From positions 1-64,000 of the IMG/VR virus record IMGVR_UViG_3300030060_008074: a stretch of 64,000 nt of DNA; one strand, given 5' to 3'. Source of the DNA: a virus. Of the stretch, positions 20,313 to 52,115 are shown piece after piece; the first letter of the stretch is position 1; each line of letters begins with the position of its first letter. The position numbers and the translations under genes were made by a program. The notes beneath the pieces are model-generated. The model worked only from the letters and a program-made list of their open reading frames with translations. It searched no databases and was not told the origin of the DNA.

Positions 20313-20445
20313 ATATATAAATATATCCTACTTTTGCCTACTACTATTTTTTTGCTGAGGATTTTCTTGCTTTTCCTTTCTTTTTCTTATTTTTTTCTTT
20401 TTTGGGTAGTCATCCATGTATTTGTCTAACCTTCTAATGTCTATC

Positions 20446-20682
20446 TTAGCCATTTTGCACCCTTACCTTTAACTTATCTATATTTTCTAAAAATTGTGAA
20501 ATATCTAATGATTGATTCTGATCAGTTTTTATTTGCATTTCTGTTAATTTATGAGGTTCTTTGTCTACAACGTTCATTAGCGCAGACAGTCCTTGGTCTG
20601 CCCAAAATACTCCAAAACCGTTGTCTGTTCCTATGAGTAATCTAGCCTCTGGTTGTGATTTATCTATTAAGTAGTAATCCAT
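20446..20682 (-). CDS. Hypothetical protein
   Basis: 78-aa ORF coupled to the epimerase. Confidence 0.6.
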   Translation of the reverse strand: MDYYLIDKSQPEARLLIGTDNGFGVFWADQGLSALMNVVDKEPHKLTEMQIKTDQNQSLDISQFLENIDKLKVRVQNG

Positions 20683-21566
20683 TTATGTATCCAATCTTTG
20701 AGTTCATTATTAGGCCTAAAATCTAAATCTAAATCAATCTTTGCAGTGCAAGCCAAAGTTTCTTTTGGTTCTATTACTCCTTCATTATATACTTTATCGC
20801 CACCAAACATACCTGCTATCTCGTTAACAGAATAATTTTTACCTGAACCTACGTTATAGCACTCACCATTTAATTTTGGCGTGTATTTAGCAGCAGCAAT
20901 ATTTGCTCTTACAACATCTTTCACGTGTATAAAATCTCTTCGCTGTTCTCCATCGTTATTTATTGTCAGTGGTAAACCTTTATTTTTCAAATCCTTAAAT
21001 ATTGGAAATAATAATCTGTATCCTCCTTCATTATTCATTCTATCACCATACACATTAAAGTACCTCAGGCAAACAGTATCTAAATCATACACTTCACTAA
21101 AAAGTTTACAATATTGTTCGCCAATAAGTTTGGTTAAAGCATATGGAGATACTGGCTTTTTTTCAGTTGATTCTGAAGTTGGAAGTTCAGTGGTTTCTCC
21201 ATAAACAGAACTTGAAGAACTAAAAACAAATCTTTTAACTCCAACACTAGAGCTAGCCCTAATAATATTTAGTAACCCTAAACAGTTTATTATTTCATAA
21301 ATTTCTGGGTTAACCAAAGATTCTTGAACTGCTGTTTTTGCTGCTAAATGAAAAACATATTCTGATCCTTCAATTATTGATTCTAGTCTTTGTGAAGCGG
21401 CTGATGATATGTCTAAATTGAAGTGGGTAGCTTTTGGATTTATATTTTCTACTTTGCCAGTAGACAAGTCGTCTATTATATAAACTTTATAGTCATAATC
21501 TACTAGTTTGTCTACTAAATTAGAACCTATAAACCCAGCACCACCAACAACCACAGCTTTTTTCAT
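20667..21566 (-). CDS. NAD-dependent sugar epimerase/dehydratase (UDP-Glc/GlcNAc 4-epimerase-like)
   Basis: GGAGFIG, SSSSVYG, YALTK (YxxxK), LRYFNVYG, RDFIHV. Confidence 0.9.
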   Translation of the reverse strand: MKKAVVVGGAGFIGSNLVDKLVDYDYKVYIIDDLSTGKVENINPKATHFNLDISSAASQRLESIIEGSEYVFHLAAKTAVQESLVNPEIYEIINCLGLLNIIRASSSVGVKRFVFSSSSSVYGETTELPTSESTEKKPVSPYALTKLIGEQYCKLFSEVYDLDTVCLRYFNVYGDRMNNEGGYRLLFPIFKDLKNKGLPLTINNDGEQRRDFIHVKDVVRANIAAAKYTPKLNGECYNVGSGKNYSVNEIAGMFGGDKVYNEGVIEPKETLACTAKIDLDLDFRPNNELKDWIHKWITT

Positions 21567-21748
21567 TACTTATTATCCGTTGTTTCCCAGTTATTTTCAA
21601 TATCAAAAATTATTTTGAAAATGTGCTCTAACTGAGGTTGAATAGCGTTTAGTACACCTTTGCTTTCTGCAGTTTCAGCTAGTGATTCTAATGCAGTTTT
21701 TACCTGTGTACTAATGATGTGCTTTCCATCTTTATCTATTTTTGCCAT
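21566..21748 (-). CDS. Hypothetical protein
   Basis: 60 aa with AAGGAG SD. Confidence 0.55.
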   Translation of the reverse strand: MAKIDKDGKHIISTQVKTALESLAETAESKGVLNAIQPQLEHIFKIIFDIENNWETTDNK

Positions 21749-21761
21749 CTTTTTTCTCCTT

Positions 21762-22958
21762 TTAATTAGTTATTAAATTATTTTCATATGTTTCCATATT
21801 TTTTATACTTACCTCTAAGGTACCTAAATTAAATGTACCTATATCTCCACTATCTGATATTATTTCAGATAACTTTTGAATGTAACCGAATTCGCTGTTT
21901 GCAAACCTACTTCCATCAACTCTTATCTCTACATTATTATTTACCTGGCTATGTATTCCATAGACTCTTTCTTTCATATCGAATTTTGTATTTTTTTGTT
22001 CACTTTCTATATAATAATCATAATCCATATCAACAAATATTTGGTCACACCACGGTTCTAGCGCATGTAATATTTGTGAAGTACAATTTTTAACTACAAT
22101 TCCAACTCCATATTTCTTAGGAACTATTGGTTTCAAAAACTTATCGTGTTTTACAAAGTGGCCCCATTTACGAATAAAGTTTCTAGAAGCCTTTTCATTT
22201 TGCGCCAACCATTCATCTGTTTCTCTGTTTTTCATAAATACTTTACCATCTGGATTTCTAACAGCTCCACCCGCAAATCTACTGCCTCTACACGTCATGT
22301 GGTATACACAACCTCCCCATGTTTGAACAAACTTAATACCATTCAAATGAAACCTATTAAATATATCTGAATCTTCTTTTGATTGAGGAGCATATAATTC
22401 ATCATGGCCTCCTATCTCCTGAAAATCCTTTTTATAGAATGCCCATGGAGCAAATATACCTTCAGTTATTTTAGTTAATTGATTTAATCGTATATCCTTA
22501 AACCAATCTAATAATTGTTGTTCTTTGAACTCTTCAGGCTCAATACCAAAATCCATTAACATCTTTTCTGGACCTGGTGGATGCAAAGGTGGTTCAATTC
22601 TTGTTAAAGAAACAATAGTTTTATCTTTCATTTTATGTTCTATCTGATCTATTGCTCCTGGCATTAAATACATATCAGCATGATATATCATACAAACATC
22701 GTGTTTTGCAACTTCATTTACTAGTTTATCATAAAGAATAGTATGGCCTAATCTTTGTTCACTAAAATTACATATTGCGTCAAAGTTTTCATCCTTTTCC
22801 ATCATCTCAAGACACCATTCCCATGTACCATCAGTAGAAGCATCTGAAGCAACGCATATCTGTACTTCATGGTCTCCTTGATTTTTTCTAATTGAATCAT
22901 AAGACCATTTTAGATACTTAAGATTATTTCTACTAGGTTGTATTAAACTAATTTTCAT
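21762..22958 (-). CDS. Glycosyltransferase family 2
   Basis: ISLIQPSRN, DASTDGT, HADM, IGGHD...EDSD. Confidence 0.85.
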   Translation of the reverse strand: MKISLIQPSRNNLKYLKWSYDSIRKNQGDHEVQICVASDASTDGTWEWCLEMMEKDENFDAICNFSEQRLGHTILYDKLVNEVAKHDVCMIYHADMYLMPGAIDQIEHKMKDKTIVSLTRIEPPLHPPGPEKMLMDFGIEPEEFKEQQLLDWFKDIRLNQLTKITEGIFAPWAFYKKDFQEIGGHDELYAPQSKEDSDIFNRFHLNGIKFVQTWGGCVYHMTCRGSRFAGGAVRNPDGKVFMKNRETDEWLAQNEKASRNFIRKWGHFVKHDKFLKPIVPKKYGVGIVVKNCTSQILHALEPWCDQIFVDMDYDYYIESEQKNTKFDMKERVYGIHSQVNNNVEIRVDGSRFANSEFGYIQKLSEIISDSGDIGTFNLGTLEVSIKNMETYENNLITN

Positions 22959-23824
22959 TGTAAATCCTCCTTTACTGATTCTATAACTTCCGCATAACTT
23001 TTTGCGTGAACCATCTGTGCACAGGAAAATAAAGGGAAGTAAGTTTCATAAACAGACCATTTTACCTCCATTCCTTTTACTGCATAAACTATGTTTTTTC
23101 CTCCAAAATAACTACAAAGAACTGAATTACCTCCCTGTACAGATATAAAATTAGAGCAATTTGCATAAAGATACATCTGTAGTTCATTGAATGATAATTG
23201 TGGAGCCATGCTCTGTAAGTCTTGTATCAAGGTCACTCTTCCCTTATATTTGTTTCCGATTAAATCAAAATCTCCAAAGTCCATTAGTGTGCTATGGTCT
23301 TCGACAATGTTTGAAGGTTTAGGCCTATTATATATTACCTTAAAGTTTGGAGACAACATCTCAAATATTTTATCTAAGGTTTCTAAATCAATAAAATTTA
23401 CCGGTCCACCATCCCATTCTGATTGATACTTATTAGATATTATATATAACGGCTTTTCAAATCTAAAAAAATTATTTTTGTAGTAGGCAGAATATGGAGG
23501 TGGAGTCCACTGATCATGCCAAAATAATTTATCTGGTAAATGGTCTAAGTCTTCGTGTAGATTTTTATCATGCGATAGAGTTTTCCAATGTAGGCCTACT
23601 GAGTGATTGTGCCTTTTAACTCTATATTTACCATCAACCTTCATTTCATAGCACATGTCTCTCTTCATATCTAATTCTTTATGTTTTTCTGAAAAGAAAT
23701 AAAATGGCTTAGTATCTTTAACGTTTATTGTTTCAAATTCTACTCCATTTATATACTGATGATAGGCAAACGGTGCTCCTAAAGTTAAATCGTATCCAAA
23801 TTCTCCTAACATTTCTATTTTCAT
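22955..23824 (-). CDS. Putative glycosyltransferase (uncharacterised)
   Basis: Context in the glycan island; GEFGYDL N-terminus and FISVQGGNS GT-B-like C-terminal motif. Confidence 0.45.
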   Translation of the reverse strand: MKIEMLGEFGYDLTLGAPFAYHQYINGVEFETINVKDTKPFYFFSEKHKELDMKRDMCYEMKVDGKYRVKRHNHSVGLHWKTLSHDKNLHEDLDHLPDKLFWHDQWTPPPYSAYYKNNFFRFEKPLYIISNKYQSEWDGGPVNFIDLETLDKIFEMLSPNFKVIYNRPKPSNIVEDHSTLMDFGDFDLIGNKYKGRVTLIQDLQSMAPQLSFNELQMYLYANCSNFISVQGGNSVLCSYFGGKNIVYAVKGMEVKWSVYETYFPLFSCAQMVHAKSYAEVIESVKEDLQ

Positions 23825-23826
23825 AA

Positions 23827-24927
23827 CTATTTTTTCTCTAACTTATTATACTTTGACCAAGCTGAACCTATTATCTGATGCATATCATAATATTTATATT
23901 CTGCTAGTCTTCCGCCAAAAATAACCTTTTCTTGTTGTTTTGATAACGTTTTATATTTACTATAAATATCATTATTGATTGTATTATTTACAGGATAGTA
24001 TGGAATTTTTTCCTTTGTAAACTCAACTGGATATTCATATGTTATTACAGTCTTTTCCTGTTTACCAAACTGAAAATGTTTGTGCTCGCATATTCTAGTA
24101 TATGGAACATCTTCAGAAGTATAATTTACAACAGCATTGCCTTGAAAATCTTTCTTATCTAATAACTTGCTATAAAATCTTAAAGTTTTATATTCTAGCT
24201 CTCCAAACCTGTAATCATAAAATTCATCTATCTTACCTGTAAACACAACCTTTTCTGCTAAATTGTCAAAGTAATCCTTATCACTGAAATAGTCTGTATT
24301 TAATTTTACCTCTATATCTCCTAACATTTTTTTCATCATTTTGGTATATCCTCCTATAGGAATTCCTTGATACTTATCATTAAAATAGTTATCATCAAAC
24401 GTTAATCTTATAGGAAGCCTTTTTATTATGGCTGAAGGTAAATCTTTTGGGTCCATCATCCACTGTTTTTTAGTGTATCCTTTAATGAAAGTCTCGTATA
24501 TTTCTTTACCAACTTGTGAAAGGGCCCATTCCTCCAAGTTTTTAGGATTATCTATTTTTTCTCTAGAAGACTCTATCTTTGCAATTGCGTCTTCAGGAGT
24601 CGTTACTCCCCATAACTGATATAAAGTCATCAAATTTATAGGAAAAGAGTAAATTTTTCCGTTGTAATTTACTTTTGGCCTGTTTACATAGTGATTGAAT
24701 TCAGCATATTCATTCACATAATCCCAAATCCTTTTATCACTGGTATGGAATATGTGAGGTCCATAAACATGTACGTCTATACCTTCTATGTCTTCAGTAT
24801 AACAGTTTCCTCCTATATGGTGTCTCTTATCTATTATTAGACATTTCTTACCATCAGCAATTGCCTTTTTTGCAAAAGTTATACCGAATAAACCGCAACC
24901 AACTATTAAATAATCATAATTTTTCAA
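23827..24927 (-). CDS. glf: UDP-galactopyranose mutase
   Basis: GCGLFG, HIGGNCY, YGPHIFHT, GYTKKQW, GRLAEYKYYDMH. Confidence 0.95.
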   Translation of the reverse strand: MKNYDYLIVGCGLFGITFAKKAIADGKKCLIIDKRHHIGGNCYTEDIEGIDVHVYGPHIFHTSDKRIWDYVNEYAEFNHYVNRPKVNYNGKIYSFPINLMTLYQLWGVTTPEDAIAKIESSREKIDNPKNLEEWALSQVGKEIYETFIKGYTKKQWMMDPKDLPSAIIKRLPIRLTFDDNYFNDKYQGIPIGGYTKMMKKMLGDIEVKLNTDYFSDKDYFDNLAEKVVFTGKIDEFYDYRFGELEYKTLRFYSKLLDKKDFQGNAVVNYTSEDVPYTRICEHKHFQFGKQEKTVITYEYPVEFTKEKIPYYPVNNTINNDIYSKYKTLSKQQEKVIFGGRLAEYKYYDMHQIIGSAWSKYNKLEKK

Positions 24928-25858
24928 CTATTTTTCTCCATTTTTGTAAAAAGGCTTTTTCTGTATAAGATTCTTGGTAAATCATCTTTGATACTTCTAC
25001 ATTCATATCATAAAAATCTTTATCTGTTTGTAATCTAGAAGCCAATTGCCTAGCAGAAAATACATCTCCTCTTTCAACACTTAAATCAGGAAACAAATCT
25101 CTCTGAGTATTTATATCGTTATATCCTATACAAGGAATTCCTAAGTATGCGCAATTCAATGGAAACTGGCCAGCTGAAGATTGATATGTCTGTATTCCAT
25201 ACTTACATTTAGATAGTTCAAGCATAAACTCGTACCAATCCATCCATGGCAAGTAATTTATTCCGTTTATTTCTTCTCCATCTTTATATTTTCCAGACTT
25301 AAATCCATACTTTGGTAAATCAAATTCATTTGATATTACCCAAGCGTCAAATCCTCTATAAGTAAGGTGCCAATTTCCTGCTACAAATACTCTATCTTCT
25401 TTTTTAGCAGTTTTTATATTGTCTTCTATCATTAAAGTAGGTAATACCATAGAAGTCTTATCAGTTATTCCTCTAAAATATTTTACGTCTGCATCGTTAT
25501 GGCATAATAATAAATCAGCCTCTAACAATTGATTATAGAACCACACCATTACTTCTACAGAATCCTCTTGCCAATCCCAGTGGCAGCTTTCCTGCATTAT
25601 TAGTACTTTATTACAATGTTTTCTAACGTTTGATATTAAAGGATAGTCAGCTTTAGCTAAATCTTGCCTATTTTTTTCTTTAGGAATAATTACTACTCCT
25701 ATATCATATGATGCATTTAACTTATCTAGAGTAAACACGCAATGGTGTGTTGCTCCTAATGCACACATCCACGCCTGATCTGTTCTCATTGGAACATCTC
25801 TAGGTATATTGCCTTCATAACCTCCTTCAGTAAAAAATGCTATACTATTCTTCGTCAT
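24914..25858 (-). CDS. Putative glycosyltransferase (GT-B fold)
   Basis: SAGQFPLNCAYLGIPCIG resembles the GT4 EA..G.P..; context. Confidence 0.55.
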   Translation of the reverse strand: MTKNSIAFFTEGGYEGNIPRDVPMRTDQAWMCALGATHHCVFTLDKLNASYDIGVVIIPKEKNRQDLAKADYPLISNVRKHCNKVLIMQESCHWDWQEDSVEVMVWFYNQLLEADLLLCHNDADVKYFRGITDKTSMVLPTLMIEDNIKTAKKEDRVFVAGNWHLTYRGFDAWVISNEFDLPKYGFKSGKYKDGEEINGINYLPWMDWYEFMLELSKCKYGIQTYQSSAGQFPLNCAYLGIPCIGYNDINTQRDLFPDLSVERGDVFSARQLASRLQTDKDFYDMNVEVSKMIYQESYTEKAFLQKWRKIVEKL

Positions 25859-26576
25859 ATTCTATTTCTCCTAACATTTCTTTTGATTTTGGTCCGTAAT
25901 TAAATAATAAATCTATGAAAGACATATGAGATTCGAATCCTTCATATCTTTGATTATATTTCGGGTGAGAAAATTTTTGAAAAACATAATTTATATTTTC
26001 ATTATCAAATTTATCTTTTTCAATGTATGTCTTTCCATCTTGTCCAAAAACAAATGTTCTAGCTCCAGCAGACTTACACATTTTAATAATTAAATCTGAT
26101 TTTTTACCTGAAATATCTTTTCCATTCTCTATAAGTTTTGAGGTTCTATAAATAGGAATGTTAATATCGAACTTTTTGAAAGCATATCTTATTATTTCTT
26201 CTGAAAAATCTATCAGATATTCATAATCTTTTGAGTATATTTCTTCTAGTTCTGAAAATATATCTTCAAAATACTCTGCCCTAGAATAGCACATTCTTAT
26301 AGAGTTTAATTGCTTTCTTTTCCAATTCTTAGAATTATCTATCCTAGCCTCAGGCCACATTAAAAGTTTACTCTTAGATTGTAATACTGGAGTACTAATC
26401 CATAACCATCCATCCTTTTTTCTTATTTTGTTTCTGCTATGCCAGTGCTCTTTCATGAATTGAACAGTATCTAATATATAATAAACGTCTCCCATTCTAG
26501 CTTTAGATATAAAACCTAGCCATGGAAAAAACTCTGGCTGATGTGCTACTAATATTGGCGATTTTATATTATCCAT
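25845..26576 (-). CDS. WbqC-family protein
   Basis: AHQPEFFPWLGF..K...D.VQF...W.SRN.I; Y.Q...F..HMS.IDLLFNYG. Confidence 0.9.
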   Translation of the reverse strand: MDNIKSPILVAHQPEFFPWLGFISKARMGDVYYILDTVQFMKEHWHSRNKIRKKDGWLWISTPVLQSKSKLLMWPEARIDNSKNWKRKQLNSIRMCYSRAEYFEDIFSELEEIYSKDYEYLIDFSEEIIRYAFKKFDINIPIYRTSKLIENGKDISGKKSDLIIKMCKSAGARTFVFGQDGKTYIEKDKFDNENINYVFQKFSHPKYNQRYEGFESHMSFIDLLFNYGPKSKEMLGEIEYDEE

Positions 26577-27366
26577 TTGGAAAAACTGATACCCATTCTA
26601 AATTATTTTTAATTGAATCTACCGTTGGACAATCAAAATTAACATCTTCTCCTAACCATATTGTTCCATTATATTTGTCATGTAAAGGAGTATATGGTAC
26701 CCTTTTTTGGTTCTGAGTAAAATACATTGCTCTAAGCCAAGAATTTGGTTGATTATCTCCAATAAATCTTAATCCTGTATTTCTTATTTCATCAACCCTT
26801 TCTTTTCTACTATTATATATTTTGTCTATATCTTGAAACATTACGTTTGTTTTGTGTATTGCAGTAGGATTATCGTGCCACTCTACATCATTACCATCAT
26901 AAGCAATTACTGCTCCGCCTTTTTCCTTGTCTACTCCAGAAGGTAACCACTTTGTTGGGCCTAATGAAGCTATAACTATGTCAGAATATTTACCTAATCC
27001 TTCTAAGCCTAAACACTGAGAACAGTCTTCAATAATCATGTATCCTTTTTCTTTTAAGTACTTTATTTGATTTTGGGCCTGTATACCAAACATGTGTGGA
27101 ACTATTACTGTGTCTACGTCCTTAAAATTTTCAACTAACTTTTCATCTATCTGTAAATCATGCGCGCAGTCAACTATTCTAGGTTTACAATTGGTGTTTA
27201 GTGTTGCCTCATATACTCTATGACATGTATAAGTTGGCATTGCCACACAATAAGAACCAAGTTGTTTAAGAGCCTTTTCAATAGCAGTTTTACCGTTTAC
27301 TAAATATGCAGCATTAGTTTTACCAAAGTAATTTGACCAATTGTTCTTAAAAAGTTTAGTCGCCAT
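26569..27366 (-). CDS. DegT/DnrJ-type PLP aminotransferase-like protein (short)
   Basis: NGKTAI, PTYTC, PHMFG, IIEDCSQ, SLGPTKWL..GG. Confidence 0.75.
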   Translation of the reverse strand: MATKLFKNNWSNYFGKTNAAYLVNGKTAIEKALKQLGSYCVAMPTYTCHRVYEATLNTNCKPRIVDCAHDLQIDEKLVENFKDVDTVIVPHMFGIQAQNQIKYLKEKGYMIIEDCSQCLGLEGLGKYSDIVIASLGPTKWLPSGVDKEKGGAVIAYDGNDVEWHDNPTAIHKTNVMFQDIDKIYNSRKERVDEIRNTGLRFIGDNQPNSWLRAMYFTQNQKRVPYTPLHDKYNGTIWLGEDVNFDCPTVDSIKNNLEWVSVFPNG

Positions 27367-28751: not shown

Positions 28752-28759
28752 ATTAGTAT

Positions 28760-28790
28760 AATATAATAAAATTTATTCAATCTGTAAAAT
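28760..28790 (-). promoter_or_regulatory. Class A promoter motif
   Basis: Minus strand ATTTTACAGATTGAATAAATTTTATTATATT. Confidence 0.6.
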
Positions 28791-28800
28791 TTTCTCAATG

Positions 28801-35595: not shown

Positions 35596-35610
35596 AATTT
35601 TCCTCTTTGT

Positions 35611-37360: not shown

Positions 37361-37367
37361 ATTATTT

Positions 37368-37398
37368 AATATAACAAATTTATTTCAATCTGTAAAAC
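37368..37398 (-). promoter_or_regulatory. Class A promoter motif
   Basis: Minus strand GTTTTACAGATTGAAATAAATTTGTTATATT. Confidence 0.55.
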
Positions 37399-40385: not shown

Positions 40386-40386
40386 A

Positions 40387-44283: not shown

Positions 44284-44285
44284 AA

Positions 44286-45323
44286 TTATCTCGTCTGTAA
44301 ATAAGGGTCTATTCCATGTTTTAAGCAGTATTCATCACTTGTTAAATTGCTGTCTACTAAACGTTCAACAAGTCTCAGCGCATTATCCCAGTTTCTAAAT
44401 TCAACCGCTTTATCATCAATATATGCCACCGCTCTAGGCTTTTCAGAAGTTACCTTTGATACAAATTTTGCCATATCGTATTTCTTTAACCATTCCCAAA
44501 CAAGTTCAGTACCTGTTTTTCCATTAACTAATCCTCTATCTGGTTTTGCCTTTGCAGTAAATATTATTACAGTATATTTTTTAGATAATTCTTCCAATGC
44601 CTCATACGAGCCTTCTATAGGTTCGTCATATATAGTACCATCATAAAATCCTTTACTATTTTTATGTATAACTCCATCAAAGTCTACTCCTATATTTGTT
44701 AACTCGTCTGGGTAAGAATTTGCTCTAATCTTATCTCCTTTCCAGTTTAATCTAGCTAATTCTTCAGGAGTATTTTTGCCTATAGGAGGGCATTCATTAC
44801 CTGAGCCGTGAGTAAGCTGGTATTGTAATAGTAAACTTAAGCATTCAGCTGTATGATAATAATCTACACCTAATATTACTTGTGTTAAACCTTTTATAGA
44901 TTCAGCTATAGGCTTAGCTGTTATTAAACAAGTTTCCATTCCATTATCAGATGCCCACTGTAAAGCTTTGTTTACGTCTTTTGATTTACCTGATGAAGAT
45001 ATTCCATATACCAAAGACTTTTTCATTTGTGATTTAGTACGGGTTGAGGTTCTTTGTTGTAGCCATGCAACCATCCATTGGTCAAAGTTTGTATCATTTA
45101 TTAGTGAAGTTGCAACAACACAACTACCTGGACACATTGCGTTCTTTGTACCATTTGAAAGTCTTGTCATATCAACAGCAGTATGGTCAGCTACTCCCAT
45201 ATTACCACCATGACCAAGTACATAAATGTCATTGCACTTATTATATTTTTTTTGTAATTCTTGCCATTCTGGTCCAGAAACTATTTCTGTAAATCTATGG
45301 CCAATGTTTTCAATATTCATCAT
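44286..45323 (-). CDS. Fusion of SIS (GmhA-like phosphosugar isomerase) and HAD phosphatase
   Basis: N-terminal G.GG...ADH, ND, GISSSG.S.DV; C-terminal VDFDGVIH, FTA, KP, YIDDKA. Confidence 0.8.
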   Translation of the reverse strand: MMNIENIGHRFTEIVSGPEWQELQKKYNKCNDIYVLGHGGNMGVADHTAVDMTRLSNGTKNAMCPGSCVVATSLINDTNFDQWMVAWLQQRTSTRTKSQMKKSLVYGISSSGKSKDVNKALQWASDNGMETCLITAKPIAESIKGLTQVILGVDYYHTAECLSLLLQYQLTHGSGNECPPIGKNTPEELARLNWKGDKIRANSYPDELTNIGVDFDGVIHKNSKGFYDGTIYDEPIEGSYEALEELSKKYTVIIFTAKAKPDRGLVNGKTGTELVWEWLKKYDMAKFVSKVTSEKPRAVAYIDDKAVEFRNWDNALRLVERLVDSNLTSDEYCLKHGIDPYLQTR

Positions 45324-45348
45324 AATTTTATTCTCCTATTTATTATAT

Positions 45349-45379
45349 AATATAATAAAATTTTTTGACATGGTAAATT
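45349..45379 (-). promoter_or_regulatory. Class A promoter motif
   Basis: Minus strand AATTTACCATGTCAAAAAATTTTATTATATT then AGGAG SD. Confidence 0.6.
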
Positions 45380-46055
45380 ATTTGTCTAATTTTTTTATTG
45401 CATCTATTAACATTGTTGTGTCCATTCCTAGAGCATAGAATCCATATCCATCTAAGTCATGAGATTTTATATCTTCTGTTTTTACTAAATGTACTCCTCT
45501 AAGCTCTTTTGGTATCATGTTAATTTTTTCTAAATACTCTTTGTATTCTTTATTATCCCATTCTCCAACACAACCTAAGCTAGCAGATAAATCGTATGGT
45601 CCAACTAAGTAATAATCAAATGGCATATTATACAATTCCTCTAAGTTATCAACAGCCTCTTTTGTTTCTATCTGTGCTATAACTATTGGCATAATATTTT
45701 GCAGTTTGTCTTTACCCCAAAAATTTTCTCTAACTAATCCTTGGCCTCTTTTACCTCCGTGTTTAGGGTATTTACAGTAATCAATGATTTCCTGTGCCTG
45801 ATTTTCATTTTCAACTGTAGAAAATATTATTCCTGTTGCACCTGCGTCTAAACACATTCTAACCAGGGCCTTATCTAAATGGGAAACTCTAACAAAGCAA
45901 TTTTTTCTTCTAAGAGTTATTATCTGTATTGAAGTATAAAGGTTTTCATTATTAAAGGCTCCATGTTCTGTATCTAACACGATGCCGTCATAGTCTGAAT
46001 CTGCATATATTTCAGATATTATTGTAGATGATATTTGTTGCCAAAGTAGTTTCAT
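45378..46055 (-). CDS. HpcH/HpaI-family pyruvate aldolase
   Basis: LDTEHG, VRV, LDAGA.G, YP..G.RG, QIET..AV.N, GPYDLSASLG. Confidence 0.9.
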   Translation of the reverse strand: MKLLWQQISSTIISEIYADSDYDGIVLDTEHGAFNNENLYTSIQIITLRRKNCFVRVSHLDKALVRMCLDAGATGIIFSTVENENQAQEIIDYCKYPKHGGKRGQGLVRENFWGKDKLQNIMPIVIAQIETKEAVDNLEELYNMPFDYYLVGPYDLSASLGCVGEWDNKEYKEYLEKINMIPKELRGVHLVKTEDIKSHDLDGYGFYALGMDTTMLIDAIKKLDK

Positions 46056-46780
46056 TATTTTTTCTCAACTAAACTTAGTCTATCTTCTTCTGTGTCTACA
46101 CTTTTACTATCGTGATCGGTATATTTCATAGAAACTTCTATATCATTTTCTAATAGCCTTAATAATCCTATGCCTTCCATATTTTCTAAATATGTTGGTT
46201 CTAGTTTTACGTATCGTTGAAGGCTATCATAGTCAAAAGAATAAACACCTAATTGTTTATACACTTTTTCTTTCAAATTTTTTCTACGAGTTTTTTCATC
46301 TCTAAACGGTATAGAATATCTAGAAAAATAAATTGCTTTTCCTGAATTACTGATTACTACCTTTACACAATTTGGGTCAAATATTTCTTCTATATCTTTT
46401 ACTTCTGTATAAAAATTTGTTATTTCGTTTGATAAATCAACGTTCAACGTATCAACATTAAAAAATGGCTCATCTCCTTGAATAATAATATACCTATCTG
46501 CATTTTCAGCCCTGTGCTTTAATATTTTAGCTGTTTCAGCGGCTCTATCGATACAATCAGGATGATTTGGATCTGTGTAAACATAATCTATATTATACTT
46601 CTCGCATACATCTGCTATTCTCTTATCGTCTAAGGCAACATATACCTTTTTCCAATTATTCCACTTTTTAACTGAATTATACACGTGCCATATCATGGGT
46701 TTACCATTTATATCACATAAAGGTTTTCCAGGCAATCTAGATGAGCCGTATCTGGCAGGTATTATTCCTATATATTCCAT
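46055..46780 (-). CDS. kdsB: CMP-Kdo synthetase-like cytidylyltransferase
   Basis: IIPARYGSSRLPGKPL, QGDEP, VKVV, YFSR..IP, LE..E...LLR.LEN, VDT.ED. Confidence 0.9.
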   Translation of the reverse strand: MEYIGIIPARYGSSRLPGKPLCDINGKPMIWHVYNSVKKWNNWKKVYVALDDKRIADVCEKYNIDYVYTDPNHPDCIDRAAETAKILKHRAENADRYIIIQGDEPFFNVDTLNVDLSNEITNFYTEVKDIEEIFDPNCVKVVISNSGKAIYFSRYSIPFRDEKTRRKNLKEKVYKQLGVYSFDYDSLQRYVKLEPTYLENMEGIGLLRLLENDIEVSMKYTDHDSKSVDTEEDRLSLVEKK

Positions 46781-46782
46781 AA

Positions 46783-47409
46783 TTATATTGTGTCGTAAAA
46801 TGCGTTTTGTTTCTCTTGTCTTCCTATGTCCTTTGGGTGATACAATGCATACTTTTCCTCAGCTGGAAGATTTGCAAATTTAGTATAACCTTTCAATTGT
46901 TCATGGACTGGTTTTATCCAGTAGATTTCTTCTTTGTTTCTATATATTCTCATCTGCCAGTCTGGAAAGTTTACCCATCCCATATCATCAACTCTCCAAC
47001 CCCATTTGGCAATATGCGCATCTGTTATTCCTGCGACTGTGTTTACTCTAGGAACCCAATATGCTTGAACATCGTCATTCGCTTCTAATATAAACGGTAA
47101 AGCTTCTATCAGATATTCGTTTGGTATTTCATCTGCGTCTATTTGAAATATCCAGTTACCATTGCAACTTTTGTTTAATTTATTTTTGTATTCTGCAAAA
47201 TTCTTATTTAATGCATATTGATTAAGAGAATATTCTGACGCGGGTTTAGTTTCAAATCTTTCACATACGCCTATTACCTCTTGAGTTGAATTCATATCCA
47301 TTTGAACCACTACCTCATCTTGTTTTCTTTTGTGCTCGAATAAAAATGTTAATAACTTTTCTATTTCTTTATGTTCATTACATACTGTAATTGCATAACT
47401 AATTTTCAT
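46783..47409 (-). CDS. Glycosyltransferase family 2
   Basis: ISYAITVCNE, WIFQIDADE, PDWQ.R, VHE. Confidence 0.85.
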   Translation of the reverse strand: MKISYAITVCNEHKEIEKLLTFLFEHKRKQDEVVVQMDMNSTQEVIGVCERFETKPASEYSLNQYALNKNFAEYKNKLNKSCNGNWIFQIDADEIPNEYLIEALPFILEANDDVQAYWVPRVNTVAGITDAHIAKWGWRVDDMGWVNFPDWQMRIYRNKEEIYWIKPVHEQLKGYTKFANLPAEEKYALYHPKDIGRQEKQNAFYDTI

Positions 47410-47415
47410 AACCTA

Positions 47416-47907
47416 TTACTCCTGTTTTGTTTTACCGTCTCTATCTTCCAATAAAAATTTATTTTCTATTGTATCACTAAATTTATAGTCAACTAAAAAC
47501 ATCTTGTTAAAATGTTGTATATCAAATGTCCTATAACTTGCTCCCCATTTTGTTTGCATATCTTTTTTTAGAAAAGAGGCATAAAATCTCTGTGAAGATG
47601 TTCTCATTTCTAGTTTTGGAATGTTTAATTTTCTCTTCTTTTGAAACTGTGGTATATAAACTAATCCAACATCTTCTGCAAGTTGATTTAATCTAACATT
47701 AGAAAAATTATCTAAAGTTAGCGCATGAACCTTTTTCTTAAAAAATGGATTCAAAACCAATATCATATATTCTCTTGCAGAATCTCTAGTTTTTCCTGAA
47801 AGTATAGGTGAATATCTAATTCTTAGAATCATTCCTTTTTCTATTCTACTTTTACTAACCTGTACTTGAGAATTTATTCTTACCCTATGTTCATTCAGTT
47901 TACCCAT
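47416..47907 (-). CDS. Hypothetical basic phage protein
   Basis: 163-aa ORF; LVLNP...HAL...YRTF pattern, no confident family. Confidence 0.55.
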   Translation of the reverse strand: MGKLNEHRVRINSQVQVSKSRIEKGMILRIRYSPILSGKTRDSAREYMILVLNPFFKKKVHALTLDNFSNVRLNQLAEDVGLVYIPQFQKKRKLNIPKLEMRTSSQRFYASFLKKDMQTKWGASYRTFDIQHFNKMFLVDYKFSDTIENKFLLEDRDGKTKQE

Positions 47908-47908
47908 A

Positions 47909-48373
47909 TTAAACGTTCTTTGCCATTCCTACTCTTTTGCATACATCTTGGAAAGCTGTTGGTACGTAGTATTCTGCAACATCTGTAGCTAACCTAGTAG
48001 TATAGTATTCTCCAGGCTTTCCTGGTATAGGATACTTTTCTTTTTCTTCTTCAGGTACCTCTACAATTGGAGCATATACCCAATTCCATTGTTCAGTTGT
48101 TCCTTCTGGATAAATCATTCCAGTTGAAAACATGGCTGTTGTAGGATACCAATATTGTCCTAAAGAATCATCTGTATATCTCAATTCCCTTATCAGTTGA
48201 GTTGTTGACTTCTCTACCTCTTCTATTTTATCACTACCAATTTTATATTCAGAATTTGTAGTAAACCCCGTATCCATACATATTCTAGTTTCTATCCCAG
48301 CAGCTGTTTTTTCAACAATTACTGATTTTTTGCCTGTAAAAGGGCTAATATCTGTTAAATCTGACTCTATCAT
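47909..48373 (-). CDS. Hypothetical phage protein
   Basis: 154-aa ORF in operon. Confidence 0.6.
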   Translation of the reverse strand: MIESDLTDISPFTGKKSVIVEKTAAGIETRICMDTGFTTNSEYKIGSDKIEEVEKSTTQLIRELRYTDDSLGQYWYPTTAMFSTGMIYPEGTTEQWNWVYAPIVEVPEEEKEKYPIPGKPGEYYTTRLATDVAEYYVPTAFQDVCKRVGMAKNV

Positions 48374-49680
48374 GTTGTTATCTTCTTTAATTTAGGTAAT
48401 TTTACCTTTGGTGGTTTGTTTAACTGTTGTAATTTAGGTAATTTTATATCAACCTTTTCTACCATATAAGAATCTAATATCCTCTTAAATTCTTCTGTCA
48501 TTGCAGAAAGACTAAATTTTTCTCTAGATAATCTTGCCTGCTTTCTAGAACCGTCTAAGAATACTTTGTAATTCTTAAATACCTCTTTTAGAACCTTGCT
48601 AGCATATCCATAATTTACATAAAACCACTTAGAACCTTTAATTATTACATCTTTCCACTGGGCTGACTGATGCACCTCTTTTATTTCCCCAGGTAATAAA
48701 GTTGAATGAGGAGTTAAAAAGTCTATATGGCCAGACCAATTAGAAGCTATCACTGGTTTACCAGTTACGCTAAATTCTAATAAAGGTCTTCCAAATCCTT
48801 CTCCATGAGTAAAGCTAACCATAGCCTTTATTTTAGGGTGATTATATAAACTATTCATTTCATCGTCTGTTAAATCGCCGTGTAAAAGATATATATTTGG
48901 ACAATTTTTTCCGTATTGTTGTCTCAGTCGTTTAATATTTTGCAATATCATCTCTCTATCAGTTACACTAAAAGTTGCTGAACTTGTTTTCATTACTAAA
49001 GCTGGACGAGTTGAGCTTGGATTATTTTTGAAAGTTTCTATAAATGTTTTAACTGTCATCCCTGTATCTTTTCTGTCATGTCCAAGAGCTCCATTAAGCC
49101 AGTGGCCGCAATATAAAAAGCAAAACTTTTCTTTTACTACACTCATTTGTTCTTGTACGGAGTTTTCAATGTCTGTAGTTTTATTAAATACTTCAAGATT
49201 CAGGCCTTCAAATAAAACCTCTACTGGAGTTGTACACTTAACCTCAGCAACTTTTTGCTGTGTTCTTTCATCTACCTTATCAAAAATAGTTGACTCAAAA
49301 ACCTTCTTTGCATGATTAGAAGGTACAAGAATAAGCTGCATTCTATTTAGACCTTCTATCCAACCAGCAGAACAAACATCTGTTTCTATACCTGCAGTTA
49401 TACCTATATTGTATTTTCCAATAGGATTAAACTCATTAGGAACACTAACCTGTATAAATACGTCTGGTTGTTGTGTTATTGATTGAGGATTAACTATTAA
49501 AGATTTAATATTATTATCCTTTTCTAATATTCCATTTCTTGGACAATCTCCCCATCTTAAATCAACTATTTTAATTATATACTTGTCCATGTTTATTAAA
49601 GATTTTAATAAATCTCTAGAATGGTCTCCATAGCCTGATCTAGAGCTTACTGGACCTTGAAATACTAATACTTTTTTCAT
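48370..49680 (-). CDS. Glycosyltransferase family 4
   Basis: SRSGYG, RKD, HGEGFGRPLLEF...GKPVIASNWSGH. Confidence 0.9.
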   Translation of the reverse strand: MKKVLVFQGPVSSRSGYGDHSRDLLKSLINMDKYIIKIVDLRWGDCPRNGILEKDNNIKSLIVNPQSITQQPDVFIQVSVPNEFNPIGKYNIGITAGIETDVCSAGWIEGLNRMQLILVPSNHAKKVFESTIFDKVDERTQQKVAEVKCTTPVEVLFEGLNLEVFNKTTDIENSVQEQMSVVKEKFCFLYCGHWLNGALGHDRKDTGMTVKTFIETFKNNPSSTRPALVMKTSSATFSVTDREMILQNIKRLRQQYGKNCPNIYLLHGDLTDDEMNSLYNHPKIKAMVSFTHGEGFGRPLLEFSVTGKPVIASNWSGHIDFLTPHSTLLPGEIKEVHQSAQWKDVIIKGSKWFYVNYGYASKVLKEVFKNYKVFLDGSRKQARLSREKFSLSAMTEEFKRILDSYMVEKVDIKLPKLQQLNKPPKVKLPKLKKITT

Positions 49681-49698
49681 ATTTTATTCTCCTATAAC

Positions 49699-51891
49699 CT
49701 ACTTTAACATTATTCCGTCTGGATAAATTACATCTTCCATATCTGTGTTAATAACTGTGAACCTCTCTCTAGGCTTCCATGATTCTAACATATTGTTTAC
49801 TTGTTCAATAAATGAAGTACCCATATTTTTTGCAGTCATTTTTATTTTTGGATCTGTCACATATTCTCTACCTGAGTTTCCTCTTCTTTCCAATTCTTTT
49901 GTTCCAAGTTTGTATGTTTCTAACATTCTATCCTTTATATCATTTATGTTTATTATAGAATCATAAATGTAAGGTGTTTGAGGAGAACCTTGTAGTGTTA
50001 CCGTTGGCCACATAGGAAAAGCCCATTCTCCATGTTTTGTATATCTCTTATCAGCATTGGATGGCCAGTCAGTTGTATAGTCTTTTTCAGTTAAATATGT
50101 TCCATCTTCTTTCATGAATCCCATCTGGTCTTGTAGTCCTCCTATGCAACTAGCAATAATAGGTGTCCCAGTCATTAGTGATTCACAAACACTCAAACCA
50201 AAACCTTCAGCAGTACTAGGCTGACAAGTTACGTCTGCCATATTGTATAAATAATTTAATTCATTTGTAGGAAATTTTGCATCTGTAAATTTAACGTTAT
50301 AGTCTGAAGCAAGGGCCCTGTGTACTGCTGGTAAGTCTGTTCCATTTGGGTCTACTCTTTCACAATGTAATAATAAGCAAGTATTCTTAGCTTCTTCTTT
50401 TCCTATTGTGTCACAAAATAACCTATATCCTAATATAAGATTTGATACACCCTTTCTACGTATATTTCTACTATTAAAGAAGAATGTAAAATCTGGGTCT
50501 AAATTCATTTTATTAGTCATCTTTTCTCTAAAAGTATAATATCTAGAAAATTCAGGATGATTGGGCCCTATTTTGAAAAATTTATTTTCACATATTCCAT
50601 GTGGCAAATATGTTAAGTCTAAACCTTCTACCCTAGGCTTTCTTTGGCAAACATTTTTGTTGATATTATATGTTTGTTTTGAAATTGCCATTAATAGGTC
50701 ACAAGATTCATATGCATTTTCATTCCAGTGAGGATAAGGAAGGTCATCCCATATATTAAGATATATCAATGGCATAGTTTGTCTTATTTCATGCTCCATA
50801 TTGTATAGCCAACCCCAGAACCTTGGATCTGTAAAGTGCATAATAATATCTATTTTTTCGTGAGAAATCAATTGTCTTAAAAGATCCGGATTACCGTATC
50901 CATCAGTTGGGTACACTATTACACTAGCGTCCTGTACCCCTGTTTCTTTTTGAATATCTGAAGATATATCTATTCTTTTTCCTTGATCAGGGTGCTTAAT
51001 GGCTCCTCCTATTTGTACCCAGTCATATTCTTTACAAGAATTTAGAACTATTTCTCTACTCATTGTTCCAACGCCAGAATGCAATCTCATATCGTCAGAC
51101 AGCAGTAGAATTTTTTTCTTTTTTGGTTTATTCAAGTCTATTTTTTTCAATTTTGGTAATGATATATTAGAATTCATATCTTTTTTCTCTCCCTTTATTA
51201 TCCATTGATTAGAAAATACTTCATGTAATAAATTATGCCTATTACAAAACTCTAAGACTGCTTGTTTTACACCTTCTCCAGTTTCATAATCATCTCCGCA
51301 TAAAACTGTGTCTGGAAATAAATTATAGCTTTTTTCAATGTCACTTAAACAATCCTCAAACGTATGAGATGCATCTATATAAATTACATCTGGTACTACG
51401 TCGTGAGATTTTACTATATCTAAACCATCAACTGTATATTGTTGTATTGGTATAACTCTATCTTTATATTCAAAAAGCCTATTTGAAAATATAGAATAAG
51501 GACCGTAATTAGGGTCTTCTATAATGTTTTTAAGCTCTGGCCAAGTACTTATATGTTTTTTTGGCCAATAGTCTACAGAAATAACTGTAGCAGTTTCAAA
51601 ATTCTCTAAAATTTCTTTTGCACTACTACCTAGTTCTGCACCTAATTCAAGATATATTGGATTTTCTTTATTTTTAAGAAGTTCTTTTACTTTATTAAAG
51701 CCAAATCTAGGCCTTCTTTTTGTATTCCATTTTTCTTTATTTTTCTTAAAGTATGAATCAAACTCTTCTTCTATAATGCCTATTTTTCCATGGGAGCGTG
51801 TTCCCTCTTTTCCCCAAGAAAGTAATTTTTCATCTAACTCTTTATATTGCTCTGTTAAATGATAAGATTTTTTTAATTTATCTAAGCCCAT
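49699..51891 (-). CDS. Fusion of class I methyltransferase (Methyltransf_24-like) and GT4 glycosyltransferase
   Basis: LELGAELGSS, IYIDASHTFE, LCGDDY; then LLSDD....SGV, RNIRRK, AEGFGLS..ESL..GTP. Confidence 0.85.
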   Translation of the reverse strand: MGLDKLKKSYHLTEQYKELDEKLLSWGKEGTRSHGKIGIIEEEFDSYFKKNKEKWNTKRRPRFGFNKVKELLKNKENPIYLELGAELGSSAKEILENFETATVISVDYWPKKHISTWPELKNIIEDPNYGPYSIFSNRLFEYKDRVIPIQQYTVDGLDIVKSHDVVPDVIYIDASHTFEDCLSDIEKSYNLFPDTVLCGDDYETGEGVKQAVLEFCNRHNLLHEVFSNQWIIKGEKKDMNSNISLPKLKKIDLNKPKKKKILLLSDDMRLHSGVGTMSREIVLNSCKEYDWVQIGGAIKHPDQGKRIDISSDIQKETGVQDASVIVYPTDGYGNPDLLRQLISHEKIDIIMHFTDPRFWGWLYNMEHEIRQTMPLIYLNIWDDLPYPHWNENAYESCDLLMAISKQTYNINKNVCQRKPRVEGLDLTYLPHGICENKFFKIGPNHPEFSRYYTFREKMTNKMNLDPDFTFFFNSRNIRRKGVSNLILGYRLFCDTIGKEEAKNTCLLLHCERVDPNGTDLPAVHRALASDYNVKFTDAKFPTNELNYLYNMADVTCQPSTAEGFGLSVCESLMTGTPIIASCIGGLQDQMGFMKEDGTYLTEKDYTTDWPSNADKRYTKHGEWAFPMWPTVTLQGSPQTPYIYDSIININDIKDRMLETYKLGTKELERRGNSGREYVTDPKIKMTAKNMGTSFIEQVNNMLESWKPRERFTVINTDMEDVIYPDGIMLK

Positions 51892-52095: not shown

Positions 52096-52115
52096 AACTA
52101 TTCTCCTATTGTATA

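What the first reader, a model, noticed from the sequence alone, without database searches (positions are those of the whole stretch)
20667..51891. A ~31-kb viral glycan island with more than 30 genes but no lipid-carrier priming, flippase, polymerase or export genes
Seen in sequence: about ten glycosyltransferases and pathways for Galf, heptose, Kdo-like, sialic, deoxy and branched sugars with tailoring enzymes. All appear soluble; I see no multi-TM Wzx/Wzy/ABC transporter or WbaP/WecA-type initiator. Internal phage-type promoters (28760, 37368, 45349, 52116) show the island is wired into phage transcription rather than being a passively captured host locus. Inference: the acceptor is cytoplasmic, most simply virion proteins (a capsid/tail glycan coat as in giant viruses), or the enzymes hijack host LPS or protein O-glycosylation.
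Basis: partly seen in the sequence, partly recalled or inferred. Interest (0 to 1): 0.8.

Follow-up and report, generated by a model that had tools for sequence, protein, structure and literature searches.

The report
Swappable sugar-building island in marine phage
An uncultured marine phage devotes about 31 kb (39 genes) to soluble enzymes that make rare sugars and join them into a chain, and related phages keep the same anchor enzymes but swap the sugar genes between them, so the phage probably coats something of its own making, though the target has not been shown.

Summary
Window 20667-51891 is a 99% coding, single-strand block of 39 ORFs. 29 match sugar-nucleotide, tailoring or glycosyltransferase families. 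No ORF on the coding strand of the 78-kb contig has two or more predicted membrane helices.

Five families for priming, flipping, polymerising or exporting were searched. All five are absent from G000, G001 and G002 and from the complete genome of the cultured relative, Flavobacterium phage immuto.

It is not a chimera. Composition matches the rest of the phage. Four related virus contigs, immuto and Microcystis phage Mel-JY01 carry an island at the same place. Four marine metagenomes from four studies hold it almost letter for letter.

New here is the architecture. Conserved anchor transferases sit at both ends around an exchangeable centre (6-31 kb). A structural-gene-type promoter motif and a small gene head the island. 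Early-type promoters lie inside it.

The acceptor is unproven: virion or other phage product about 0.42, host envelope glycan about 0.33, DNA about 0.07.

This scan has flagged look-alike islands on other DNA many times. Kind: new variant of a known kind. Interest: 0.58.

The parts
52096..52143 (-). Head promoter region carrying the class-2 motif (TATATTTATAT at about 52125).
   Evidence: The same motif sits before the first island gene in G005, G004 and immuto, and a one-mismatch variant in G001. In G001, 10 of 12 GATATTTAT sites lie in the structural region.
51910..52095 (-). Small basic 61-aa first gene. It looks ribbon-helix-helix-like by eye; function unknown.
   Evidence: Hits in 17 related loci and in immuto at 38%. 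No Pfam or PHROG match.
49699..51891 (-). Anchor transferase 1: GT4 domain (about residues 260-730) fused to an N-terminal class I methyltransferase domain.
   Evidence: Relatives have a 467-521 aa GT4 without the methyltransferase. 45% identical to immuto gp181.
48370..49680 (-). Anchor transferase 2 (GT1/GT4-like, 436 aa) with C-terminal KLPKLKK repeats.
   Evidence: 46% identical to immuto, 44% to Mel-JY01.
47909..48373 (-). Conserved 154-aa protein, function unknown.
47416..47907 (-). Conserved basic 163-aa protein. Lead only: T4 gp2-like.
46783..47409 (-). Anchor transferase 3: small GT2 (208 aa).
   Evidence: 49% identical to immuto.
45378..46780 (-). KdsB-type CMP-sugar synthetase plus HpcH/HpaI aldolase. 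Candidate 2-keto-3-deoxy acid sugar module.
45324..45377 (-). Internal class-1 (early-type) promoter motif, exact copy.
37385..45323 (-). Sialic-type module. In order: GmhA/HAD-like, MptE(Maf)-like, unknown 339 aa, NanE, NeuB, methyltransferase-like, GT29, formyltransferase, deacetylase, CMP-synthetase.
37361..37384 (-). Weak variant of the class-1 motif.
28801..37360 (-). Deoxy, branched and heptose-type module. In order: HAD-like 97 aa, unknown 315 aa, RmlC, B12 radical SAM, split transketolase, 4,6-dehydratase, unknown 145 aa, cytidylyltransferase, cupin, PNP_UDP, PfkB kinase.
   Evidence: The HAD motif was read from the sequence.
28752..28800 (-). Internal class-1 promoter motif, exact copy, ending 8 nt before the ATG.
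25845..28751 (-). GT8-like (weak), PIG-L deacetylase, short DegT aminotransferase, WbqC.
24914..25858 (-). Conserved 314-aa tail-end protein. Candidate GT-B transferase, unproven.
   Evidence: 34-42% identical in G005, G002 and G004. 2203 metagenome relatives, all unnamed. Weak BshA match, E 0.033. hhalign against GT1 was negative.
22955..24927 (-). UDP-galactopyranose mutase plus an unknown 289-aa protein.
21762..22958 (-). Anchor transferase 4: large GT2 (398 aa).
   Evidence: 70% identical in G005 and 44% in immuto.
20667..21748 (-). NDP-sugar epimerase (299 aa) plus a 60-aa ORF.
20076..20682 (-). Two conserved 78-aa genes that close the island in relatives. A class-2 motif lies at 20325.

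Best explanation
The island is a lineage-wide glycan assembly locus, transcribed by the phage, in an abundant marine myovirus group related to Flavobacterium phage immuto.

Four anchor glycosyltransferases are fixed: GT4, GT1 and a small GT2 at the head, and a large GT2 at the tail. They sit behind a small gene and a promoter motif of the type found before structural genes. Between them lies an exchangeable set of sugar-nucleotide pathways and further transferases under early-type promoters.

Proposed order of events (inferred). Rare activated sugars are made early. Here they are a sialic-type acid, a Kdo-like acid, Galf, a heptose, and deoxy or branched sugars. Soluble transferases then join them in the cytoplasm.

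Most likely acceptor (inferred, not shown): a product of the phage itself, most simply virion proteins. That would give particles a strain-specific sugar coat.
For: Anatomy (shown).
- Searches give the gene content and density.
- Searches show islands of about 9.6, 20, 20 and 29 kb at the same site in four contigs. Head and tail are conserved and the centres are unrelated.
- 88 of the relatives' island proteins match 51 families, mostly sugar enzymes.
- Cultured phages have reduced versions with the same anchors: immuto about 11 kb, Mel-JY01 about 6 kb with transferases and a methyltransferase only.

Phage origin.
- Codon usage correlates at r 0.95-0.98 with the rest of the phage.
- All 13 of 13 relatives of GT1 found in 185,579 species genomes lie on metagenome-bin contigs with phage gene order.

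Phage-made acceptor (indirect).
- The anchors are 44-47% identical across phages of two host phyla.
- No membrane partner was found in any record.
- The head motif matches the one before the sheath and adaptor genes in G001.
- The only other phage hits to GT1 are actinophage transferases inside the capsid-tail operon, at 23.5% identity, E 1e-6.
Against: - No glycan has been seen on any particle of this group.
- The island lies between the replication genes and the lysis and cargo genes, not among structural genes.
- The class-2 motif also precedes the ribonucleotide reductase, GroES-like and endolysin-like genes, so 'late' is not proven.
- Similarity to actinophage transferases is weak.
- A scan for Ser/Thr-rich tags showed only ordinary fibre-like composition.
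Confidence: 0.42

Rival explanations
1. Host envelope remodelling. The soluble enzymes extend host lipid-linked intermediates (undecaprenyl-linked O-antigen, capsule or general O-glycan units, or lipid A-core) at the inner face of the membrane. Host initiators, flippases and ligases do the rest. The infected cell's surface changes, for example to exclude other phages or to stop progeny sticking to debris.
For: - The gene content is that of O-antigen and capsule loci, with conserved ends and a variable centre.
- This is the reading given in print for glycosyltransferase-rich variable regions of pelagimyophages and cyanomyophages (passages of PMC7029224; PMC12801897).
- Early-type promoters lie inside the island.
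- An exported surface-protein module follows the island directly in G001 and lies about 7 kb away here.
- The basic KLPKLKK tails on two anchors could be membrane-binding.
Against: - The anchors are conserved between phages of Bacteroidota and Cyanobacteriota hosts, whose envelope glycans differ.
- No close relative of GT1 was found in any isolate genome. That scan used only two peptide patterns, so distant relatives could be missed.
- There is no initiator or flippase even in the 31-kb version, so the host flippase, polymerase and ligase would have to accept foreign units.
Confidence: 0.33
2. DNA hypermodification. The transferases put sugars on modified bases of the phage DNA, as T4 does with glucose on hydroxymethylcytosine.
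For: - The island lies beside the replication and nucleotide genes: a divergent thymidylate-synthase-like gene, dUTPase, a PD-(D/E)XK nuclease and a SLOG/DprA-like gene.
- There are weak matches to the GT4 family of conflict systems.
- A paper on viral transferases that put diverse glycans on DNA exists. It was seen only as a reference entry.
Against: - In immuto, which has the same anchors, digested DNA gave dA, dC, dT and one further nucleoside, formyl-preQ1 in place of dG. No glycosylated nucleoside was reported (passages of PMC10516641).
- The anchors stay constant while the DNA-modification genes differ between immuto and this phage.
- There is no Pfam match to the T4 transferase families.
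- 39 genes including a sialic-type pathway is far beyond any known DNA glycan.
Confidence: 0.07
3. Another soluble acceptor. The target could be host or phage non-virion proteins, a glycolipid that stays in the inner leaflet, or a small molecule.
For: Nothing excludes it. GT4 enzymes include glycolipid and small-molecule transferases; the best solved-structure hits by sequence are MshA-type and trehalose synthases.
Against: A multi-sugar heteroglycan with a strain-variable outer part is hard to explain for an internal metabolite. There is no positive evidence.
Confidence: 0.15
4. Assembly chimera, or host DNA captured passively and not used.
For: The contig is linear, has no terminal repeat, and CheckV rates it 19% complete.
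Against: - GC, GC3 and strand are uniform.
- The same locus occurs in 4 virus contigs, 2 cultured phages and 13 metagenome-bin contigs.
- Phage promoter motifs lie inside the island.
- Contigs from four studies cover all 30 bins of 36000-55900 and bridge the head border.
Confidence: 0.02

Closest known systems
Glycosyltransferase-rich variable regions of marine T4-like phages: the pelagimyophage 'host recognition cluster' (PMC7029224) and cyanomyophage S-SCSM2R with 22 cell-wall genes including 13 transferases (PMC12801897).
   Same: Large marine myoviruses carry many soluble transferases and sugar-nucleotide genes in a variable region.
   Different: - Here the genes form one contiguous 39-gene locus beside the replication genes, not in the tail-fibre region.
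- Fixed anchor transferases, a fixed head promoter motif and swappable centres are present.
- The DNA polymerase is only about 27% identical to those phages'.
- The printed reading is host O-chain change, which the cross-phylum conservation here does not favour.
Mycobacteriophage virion glycosylation (Freeman et al. 2023). The paper is not held. It is known here from citing passages and from recall.
   Same: Soluble phage transferases with no membrane machinery. A weak sequence link exists between GT1 and actinophage structural-operon transferases.
   Different: Those systems have one to a few transferases inside the capsid-tail operon and use host sugars. This one has up to 39 genes including its own sugar pathways, and it lies outside the structural module.
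Bacterial O-antigen and capsule gene clusters.
   Same: Conserved ends, an exchangeable centre, and the same enzyme families.
   Different: No initiating phosphoglycosyl transferase, Wzx, Wzy, ABC-2 permease or ligase in the locus or in the complete genome of cultured relative immuto.
Flagellin glycosylation islands of Campylobacter and Helicobacter: nonulosonic acid pathway plus Maf transferases (from recall).
   Same: A fully cytoplasmic protein glycosylation system with NeuB-type synthase, CMP-activating enzyme and a variable gene set. An MptE(Maf)-like protein lies beside the NeuB module here.
   Different: The MptE-like match is under the Pfam cut-off (31.4 against 34.6 bits). There is no flagellin. 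A GT29-type transferase is present instead.
Giant-virus glycan clusters (Mimivirus fibrils, chlorovirus capsid; from recall).
   Same: Virus-encoded sugar pathways and soluble transferases that decorate the particle independently of host membrane machinery. Both anchors weakly hit chlorovirus transferase B736L.
   Different: A bacterial virus. The sequence matches are marginal (E 0.06 and 6e-5).

Membership tests
Wzx/Wzy- or ABC-dependent O-antigen/capsule locus | Initiating phosphoglycosyl transferase (WbaP/PglC type PF02397, or WecA type PF00953). | tested here: not met
   0 matches in G000, G001, G002, G004, G005, immuto and Mel-JY01 for PF02397. 0 of 5 records for PF00953. Control genomes matched.
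Wzx/Wzy- or ABC-dependent O-antigen/capsule locus | Flippase, polymerase or ligase, or ABC-2 permease. | tested here: not met
   PF01943, PF04932 and PF01061 each gave 0 of 5 records. No multi-helix protein in the islands.
Wzx/Wzy- or ABC-dependent O-antigen/capsule locus | Sugar-nucleotide pathways plus several transferases, with conserved ends and a variable centre. | tested here: met
Actinophage-type virion glycosylation | Transferase genes inside the capsid-tail operon. | tested here: not met
   The island lies between the nuclease/SLOG genes and the endolysin-like and cargo genes. In Kitkat the transferase sits between the tail terminator and the tail chaperones.
Actinophage-type virion glycosylation | Glycan on capsid or tail subunits. 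| not testable with these tools
   Needs virion glycoproteomics.
Actinophage-type virion glycosylation | Expression together with structural genes. | tested here: inconclusive
   The head motif is of the class found before structural genes in G001, but that class also precedes some non-structural genes. No RNA-holding run was listed.
Maf-type nonulosonic acid protein glycosylation | NeuB-type synthase and a CMP-activating enzyme. | tested here: met
   NeuB 1.8e-70; CTP_transf_3 1.3e-31 and 4.8e-43.
Maf-type nonulosonic acid protein glycosylation | Maf transferase (MptE-like domain). | tested here: inconclusive
   31.4 bits against a cut-off of 34.6. No solved-structure match.
T4-type DNA glycosylation | T4 alpha- or beta-glucosyltransferase family member. 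| tested here: not met
   No such Pfam match among the 38 island ORFs of 97 aa or more that were scanned.
T4-type DNA glycosylation | Glycosylated nucleosides in virion DNA. | not testable with these tools
   For relative immuto, published HPLC-MS lists dA, dC, dT and formyl-preQ1 only (PMC10516641 passages). Supplements could not be opened.
Seroconverting Gtr system | GtrA flippase, GtrB and a membrane-bound serotype transferase. | tested here: not met
   No membrane proteins in the island.
Immuto-like marine myovirus lineage | Shared gene order: GroES-GroEL, PD-(D/E)XK nuclease, small gene, GT4, GT1, small GT2, then epimerase and large GT2. | tested here: met
   GroEL is 55% identical and the anchors 44-49%. 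The polymerase differs: family A in immuto, family B here.

The most novel reading that the evidence does not exclude
An abundant group of marine phages has 'glycan serotypes' of its own. A fixed set of late-led transferases anchors a glycan on the virus particle. Its outer part is rewritten by swapping whole sugar-pathway cassettes (here including a sialic-type acid added by an animal-type GT29 enzyme), much as bacteria swap O-antigens. If so, particle surface chemistry, not only tail-fibre sequence, would be a fast-evolving trait of ocean phages. It could affect adsorption, aggregation, grazing, and decay or recognition.
Probability: 0.35. Interest if true: 0.8.

Novelty: new variant of a known kind. 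Interest (0 to 1): 0.58.

Why it matters
Sugar genes in marine phage genomes are usually filed as 'auxiliary' genes that alter the host's lipopolysaccharide. Here the locus has fixed anchor enzymes, its own promoter logic and exchangeable centres. It recurs in phages of hosts from different phyla. Close relatives of the anchor were found only on phage-like DNA. That points to a dedicated phage glycosylation system.

At 39 genes it exceeds the 22-gene set described in print as notable for a marine phage (PMC12801897 passages). A cultured relative, Flavobacterium phage immuto on Flavobacterium sp. LMO8, carries the same anchors. The question 'what do these enzymes glycosylate' can therefore be answered at the bench with ordinary methods.

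Tried and rejected
- **Structure route.** As a substitute, a profile of the 24914 family against solved-structure sequences gave only a weak BshA match (E 0.033). hhalign of that profile against the GT1 profile was negative (probability 0.4).
- **Solved-structure searches by sequence.** The two anchors gave generic GT-B hits only. The large GT2 and the MptE-like protein gave nothing useful.
- **Unknown proteins.** NCBIfam and PHROGs added only a GmhA/HAD lead and a methyltransferase lead. The ESM Atlas gave no usable lead for 47909 and a 10%-share gp2 lead for 47416.
- **DpdA contrast.** PF01702 was meant to contrast DpdA between immuto and this phage. It failed its positive control, with no hit in immuto although DpdA is annotated there, so it is inconclusive.
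- **Ser/Thr-rich acceptor tags.** The scan of G001 and G000 proteins showed only fibre-like composition.
- **Membrane proteins in relatives.** G001 has a 218-aa, 6-helix protein with a weak DUF998 match. Immuto gp185 has 381 aa, 5 helices and no family. Neither matches a flippase or polymerase family, and both remain unexplained.
- **RNA.** No RNA holder was listed.
- **Literature.** Searches found no description of this conserved locus or of nonulosonic-acid genes in phage genomes. Subscription journals and supplements are not covered. The Freeman 2023 paper is not held.
- **Megablast.** Window 1-20000 against phages gave only a 168-nt match to two Pelagibacter phages.
- **Limits on the absence claims.** PF01943, PF00953, PF04932 and PF01061 were not searched in G004 or Mel-JY01. 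Apart from G000 and G001, the helix scan covered only the island stretches of G002, G004 and G005 and a 41-kb stretch of immuto.

Full report
**What the contig is.** The window is the first 64,000 bases of a 78,204-base linear virus record. It has no terminal repeat and two 10-N stretches outside the window. CheckV rates it 19% complete. All genes lie on the - strand, and GC is 0.29-0.37 throughout.

Around the finding lie phage genes:
- a family B DNA polymerase, GroES- and GroEL-like genes, a PD-(D/E)XK nuclease and a SLOG/DprA-like gene;
- further on, gp32-like, RecA/UvsX-like, DnaB-like helicase, 5'-3' exonuclease, class II ribonucleotide reductase, a divergent thymidylate-synthase-like gene and dUTPase;
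- on the other side, an endolysin-like gene, an M23 peptidase and an HNH endonuclease.

The polymerase is only about 27% identical to those of cultured T4-like cyanophages.

**The observation.** 20667-51891 holds 39 ORFs (38 of 97 aa or more). It is 99.4% coding, and 27 of 38 junctions overlap or abut. Pfam and NCBIfam assign 29 of the 39.

In order of transcription the genes are:
- a GT4 fused to a methyltransferase, a GT1, two small unknowns and a small GT2;
- a KdsB-type cytidylyltransferase and an HpcH aldolase;
- a GmhA/HAD-like protein, an MptE-like protein, an unknown, NanE, NeuB, a methyltransferase-like protein, GT29, a formyltransferase, a deacetylase and a second cytidylyltransferase;
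- a small HAD-like protein, an unknown, RmlC, a B12 radical SAM enzyme, a split transketolase, a 4,6-dehydratase, an unknown, a small cytidylyltransferase, a cupin, a phosphorylase-family protein and a PfkB kinase;
- a GT8-like protein, a PIG-L deacetylase, a short DegT, WbqC, a conserved unknown, Glf, an unknown, a large GT2 and an epimerase.

Five transferases pass Pfam cut-offs and two are weak, so 'about ten' is generous. A hydropathy scan found no protein with two or more membrane segments in the island or on the coding strand of the contig, apart from short nested ORFs.

**Not a chimera, and not alone.** The polymerase found 46 IMG/VR loci, 40 of them at 52-94% identity. Four longer records were examined: G001 (147 kb, 86% complete), G002, G004 and G005. 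Each has an island between the same flanking genes, of about 9.6, 20, 20 and 29 kb. G001 encodes a tail sheath, portal, terminase and head-tail adaptor, so the lineage is a myovirus.

In all four relatives the head and tail are conserved:
- head: GT4 of 467-521 aa, GT1, two small proteins, and a small GT2 (no small-GT2 homologue was found in G001);
- tail: the large GT2 and the 24914-like protein in G005, G002 and G004 (no homologue of either in G001); an epimerase-family gene in all four, only 28-53% identical and not at the tail end in G002 and G004; and a 78-aa gene in G005, G001 and G004.

Most central genes have no counterpart here at E 1e-5. Of 88 island proteins from the relatives (3 junction-spanning ORFs left out), members matched 51 Pfam families. 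The commonest were epimerase/dehydratase, DegT aminotransferase, GT2, GT1, hexapeptide acyltransferase, NeuB and transketolase. None of 139 proteins scanned had two membrane segments.

Codon usage of head, centre and tail correlates at r 0.95-0.98 with the rest of the contig, and GC3 is 0.21-0.22 everywhere. Seven marine metagenome runs from four studies hold half or more of the sampled words of 44000-53900. Contigs from four of these runs, one per study, cover all 30 bins of 36000-55900. Some cross the head border, for example 51387-52738 with one difference.

**Cultured relatives.** tblastn of GT1 against 50,697 phage records hit 11:
- Microcystis phage Mel-JY01, at 44.4%;
- six Arthrobacter phages; in five the match runs at 23.5% identity over 73% of the query (E 1e-6), and in the sixth at 29.9% over 22% (E 7e-6).

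Immuto has the same gene order: GroES, GroEL, nuclease, small gene, GT4, GT1, unknown, small GT2, then sugar genes, an epimerase and the large GT2. That is about 11 kb. Mel-JY01 has about 6 kb holding only transferases and a methyltransferase after its nuclease. In Arthrobacter phage Kitkat the matching transferase lies between the tail terminator and the tail chaperones.

A scan of one genome per 185,579 species with the GT1 alignment found 13 relatives. All are on metagenome-bin contigs that show the phage gene order, and they are binned to unrelated taxa. None is in an isolate genome. The scan used two peptide patterns, so only fairly close relatives could appear.

**Membrane machinery elsewhere.**

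| Family | Records searched | Matches |
|---|---|---|
| PF02397 | G000, G001, G002, G004, G005, immuto, Mel-JY01 | 0 |
| PF01943, PF00953, PF04932, PF01061 | G000, G001, G002, G005, immuto | 0 |

The control genomes matched in every search. G001 has one 218-aa six-helix protein with a weak DUF998 match. Immuto has a 381-aa five-helix protein with no family match. Neither matches a flippase or polymerase family.

**Promoters.** Two motifs recur in intergenic gaps.

Class 1 is TTTTATTATATT(A/T).
- It has 14 matches in the window at up to 1 mismatch, against 4.8 expected. None of 100 shuffles reaches 14. All five exact copies are on the coding strand in gaps.
- Two exact copies are inside the island (28759, 45348) and a weaker variant lies at 37368.
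- Relatives have more: five in G005, two in G004, one in G001.
- In G001 the matching class lies mostly before small genes in the 0-14 kb and 130-147 kb regions, at 10 of 17 sites.

Class 2 is (G/T)ATATTTATAT.
- It lies at 52125, directly before the 61-aa first gene of the island.
- The same holds in G005, G004 and immuto. G001 has a one-mismatch variant and G002 has none.
- In G001, 10 of 12 GATATTTAT sites lie in the 50-130 kb structural region, including before the adaptor gene; the sheath gene is preceded by the TATATTTAT form of the motif. The other two precede the reductase and a gene after the island.

The anchors look late-led and the sugar pathways early-led, but this timing is inferred from motifs only.

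**What the acceptor is.** The data do not settle it.

For a phage-made acceptor, most simply virion proteins:
- the anchors are conserved across phages of hosts from two phyla;
- close GT1 relatives were found only on phage-like DNA;
- there is no membrane partner;
- the head motif is of the structural-gene type;
- there is a weak link to actinophage transferases in structural operons.

For host envelope remodelling:
- the gene content matches;
- this is the printed reading for other marine T4-like phages (PMC7029224, PMC12801897; passages only);
- early-type promoters lie inside the island;
- a nearby exported surface-protein module is adjacent to the island in G001.

Against DNA as the acceptor:
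- digested immuto DNA gave dA, dC, dT and formyl-preQ1 only (PMC10516641, passages);
- the anchors are shared although the DNA-modification genes differ between immuto and this phage.

My estimates are: virion or other phage product 0.42, host envelope 0.33, DNA 0.07, other 0.15, artefact 0.02.

**Comparison and novelty.** Phage glycan gene clusters without membrane genes are known in print, though at a smaller scale or scattered. Virion glycosylation is known for actinophages. New here are the fixed-anchor and swappable-centre architecture, the head gene and motif, the spread across phages of hosts from two phyla, and the size.

Earlier notes of this scan report many look-alike islands on other DNA: 315 notes hold the search words, and look-alikes of GT1 occur in 101 windows of 73 genomes. 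Within the scan this is therefore a recurring find. I rate it a new variant of a known kind, interest 0.58.

**Limits.** No structure prediction was possible. Paper supplements were closed, including the pelagimyophage figures S2-S3 and the quantitative nucleoside data for immuto, both of which bear on the claims above.

Noticed in passing
window 48370-48400 and about 51130-51150 (protein tails); relatives L052, L053, L057: A (K)LPKLKK(I/V) peptide sits at the C-terminus of GT1 (two copies) and at the start of the GT4 domain. It is present on both enzymes in G005, G002 and G004, on GT1 only in immuto, and on neither in G001. It resembles the M(I)KLKxIL.E leaders of the proteins at 5906-18552. 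It may be a docking motif.
   Followed up: partly
window 51910-52095: A 61-aa basic first gene of the island is conserved in 17 related loci and in immuto. It looks ribbon-helix-helix-like by eye and has no family match. It may regulate the island.
   Followed up: partly
window 28752-28800, 37361-37384, 54832-54878: Class-1 promoter motifs end 6-8 nt before the ATG with no Shine-Dalgarno sequence, which would give leaderless messages.
   Followed up: no
L070-L082: 13 contigs in genome bins assigned to Saprospiraceae, Nisaea, Ignavibacteria, Methanobacteriota, Winogradskyella, Pelagibacter and others carry this phage lineage's gene order. They are probably phage DNA binned by mistake.
   Followed up: partly
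window 57291-59729 versus L067 7276-9609: The same position holds a family B polymerase here and an annotated family A polymerase in immuto, with no similarity between them. This is a polymerase swap within a conserved neighbourhood.
   Followed up: no
window 47416-47907: A conserved basic 163-aa protein inside the head module has an ESM Atlas lead to the T4 gp2 DNA-end-protector family (10% share only). Pfam is silent.
   Followed up: partly
L067 15928-17073 (immuto gp185); G001 5161-5817: Two membrane proteins of unknown function occur in relatives: 381 aa with 5 helices and no family, and 218 aa with 6 helices and a weak DUF998 match. Neither has a homologue in this contig.
   Followed up: partly
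window 53021-53914: A PLP-dependent enzyme of the cysteine synthase/threonine dehydratase fold (PALP, 2.2e-66) lies just upstream of the island. It is shared with G005 and G002.
   Followed up: no
window 18762-18929: A 168-nt stretch is 76% identical to hypothetical genes of Pelagibacter phages Aegir and Kolga. This was the only megablast hit of window 1-20000.
   Followed up: no
window 46624-47951 and 55256-55900: Summed contig depth is several-fold higher over the small GT2/47416 genes and over GroEL in all four metagenomes, as expected if many related strains share these conserved genes.
   Followed up: no
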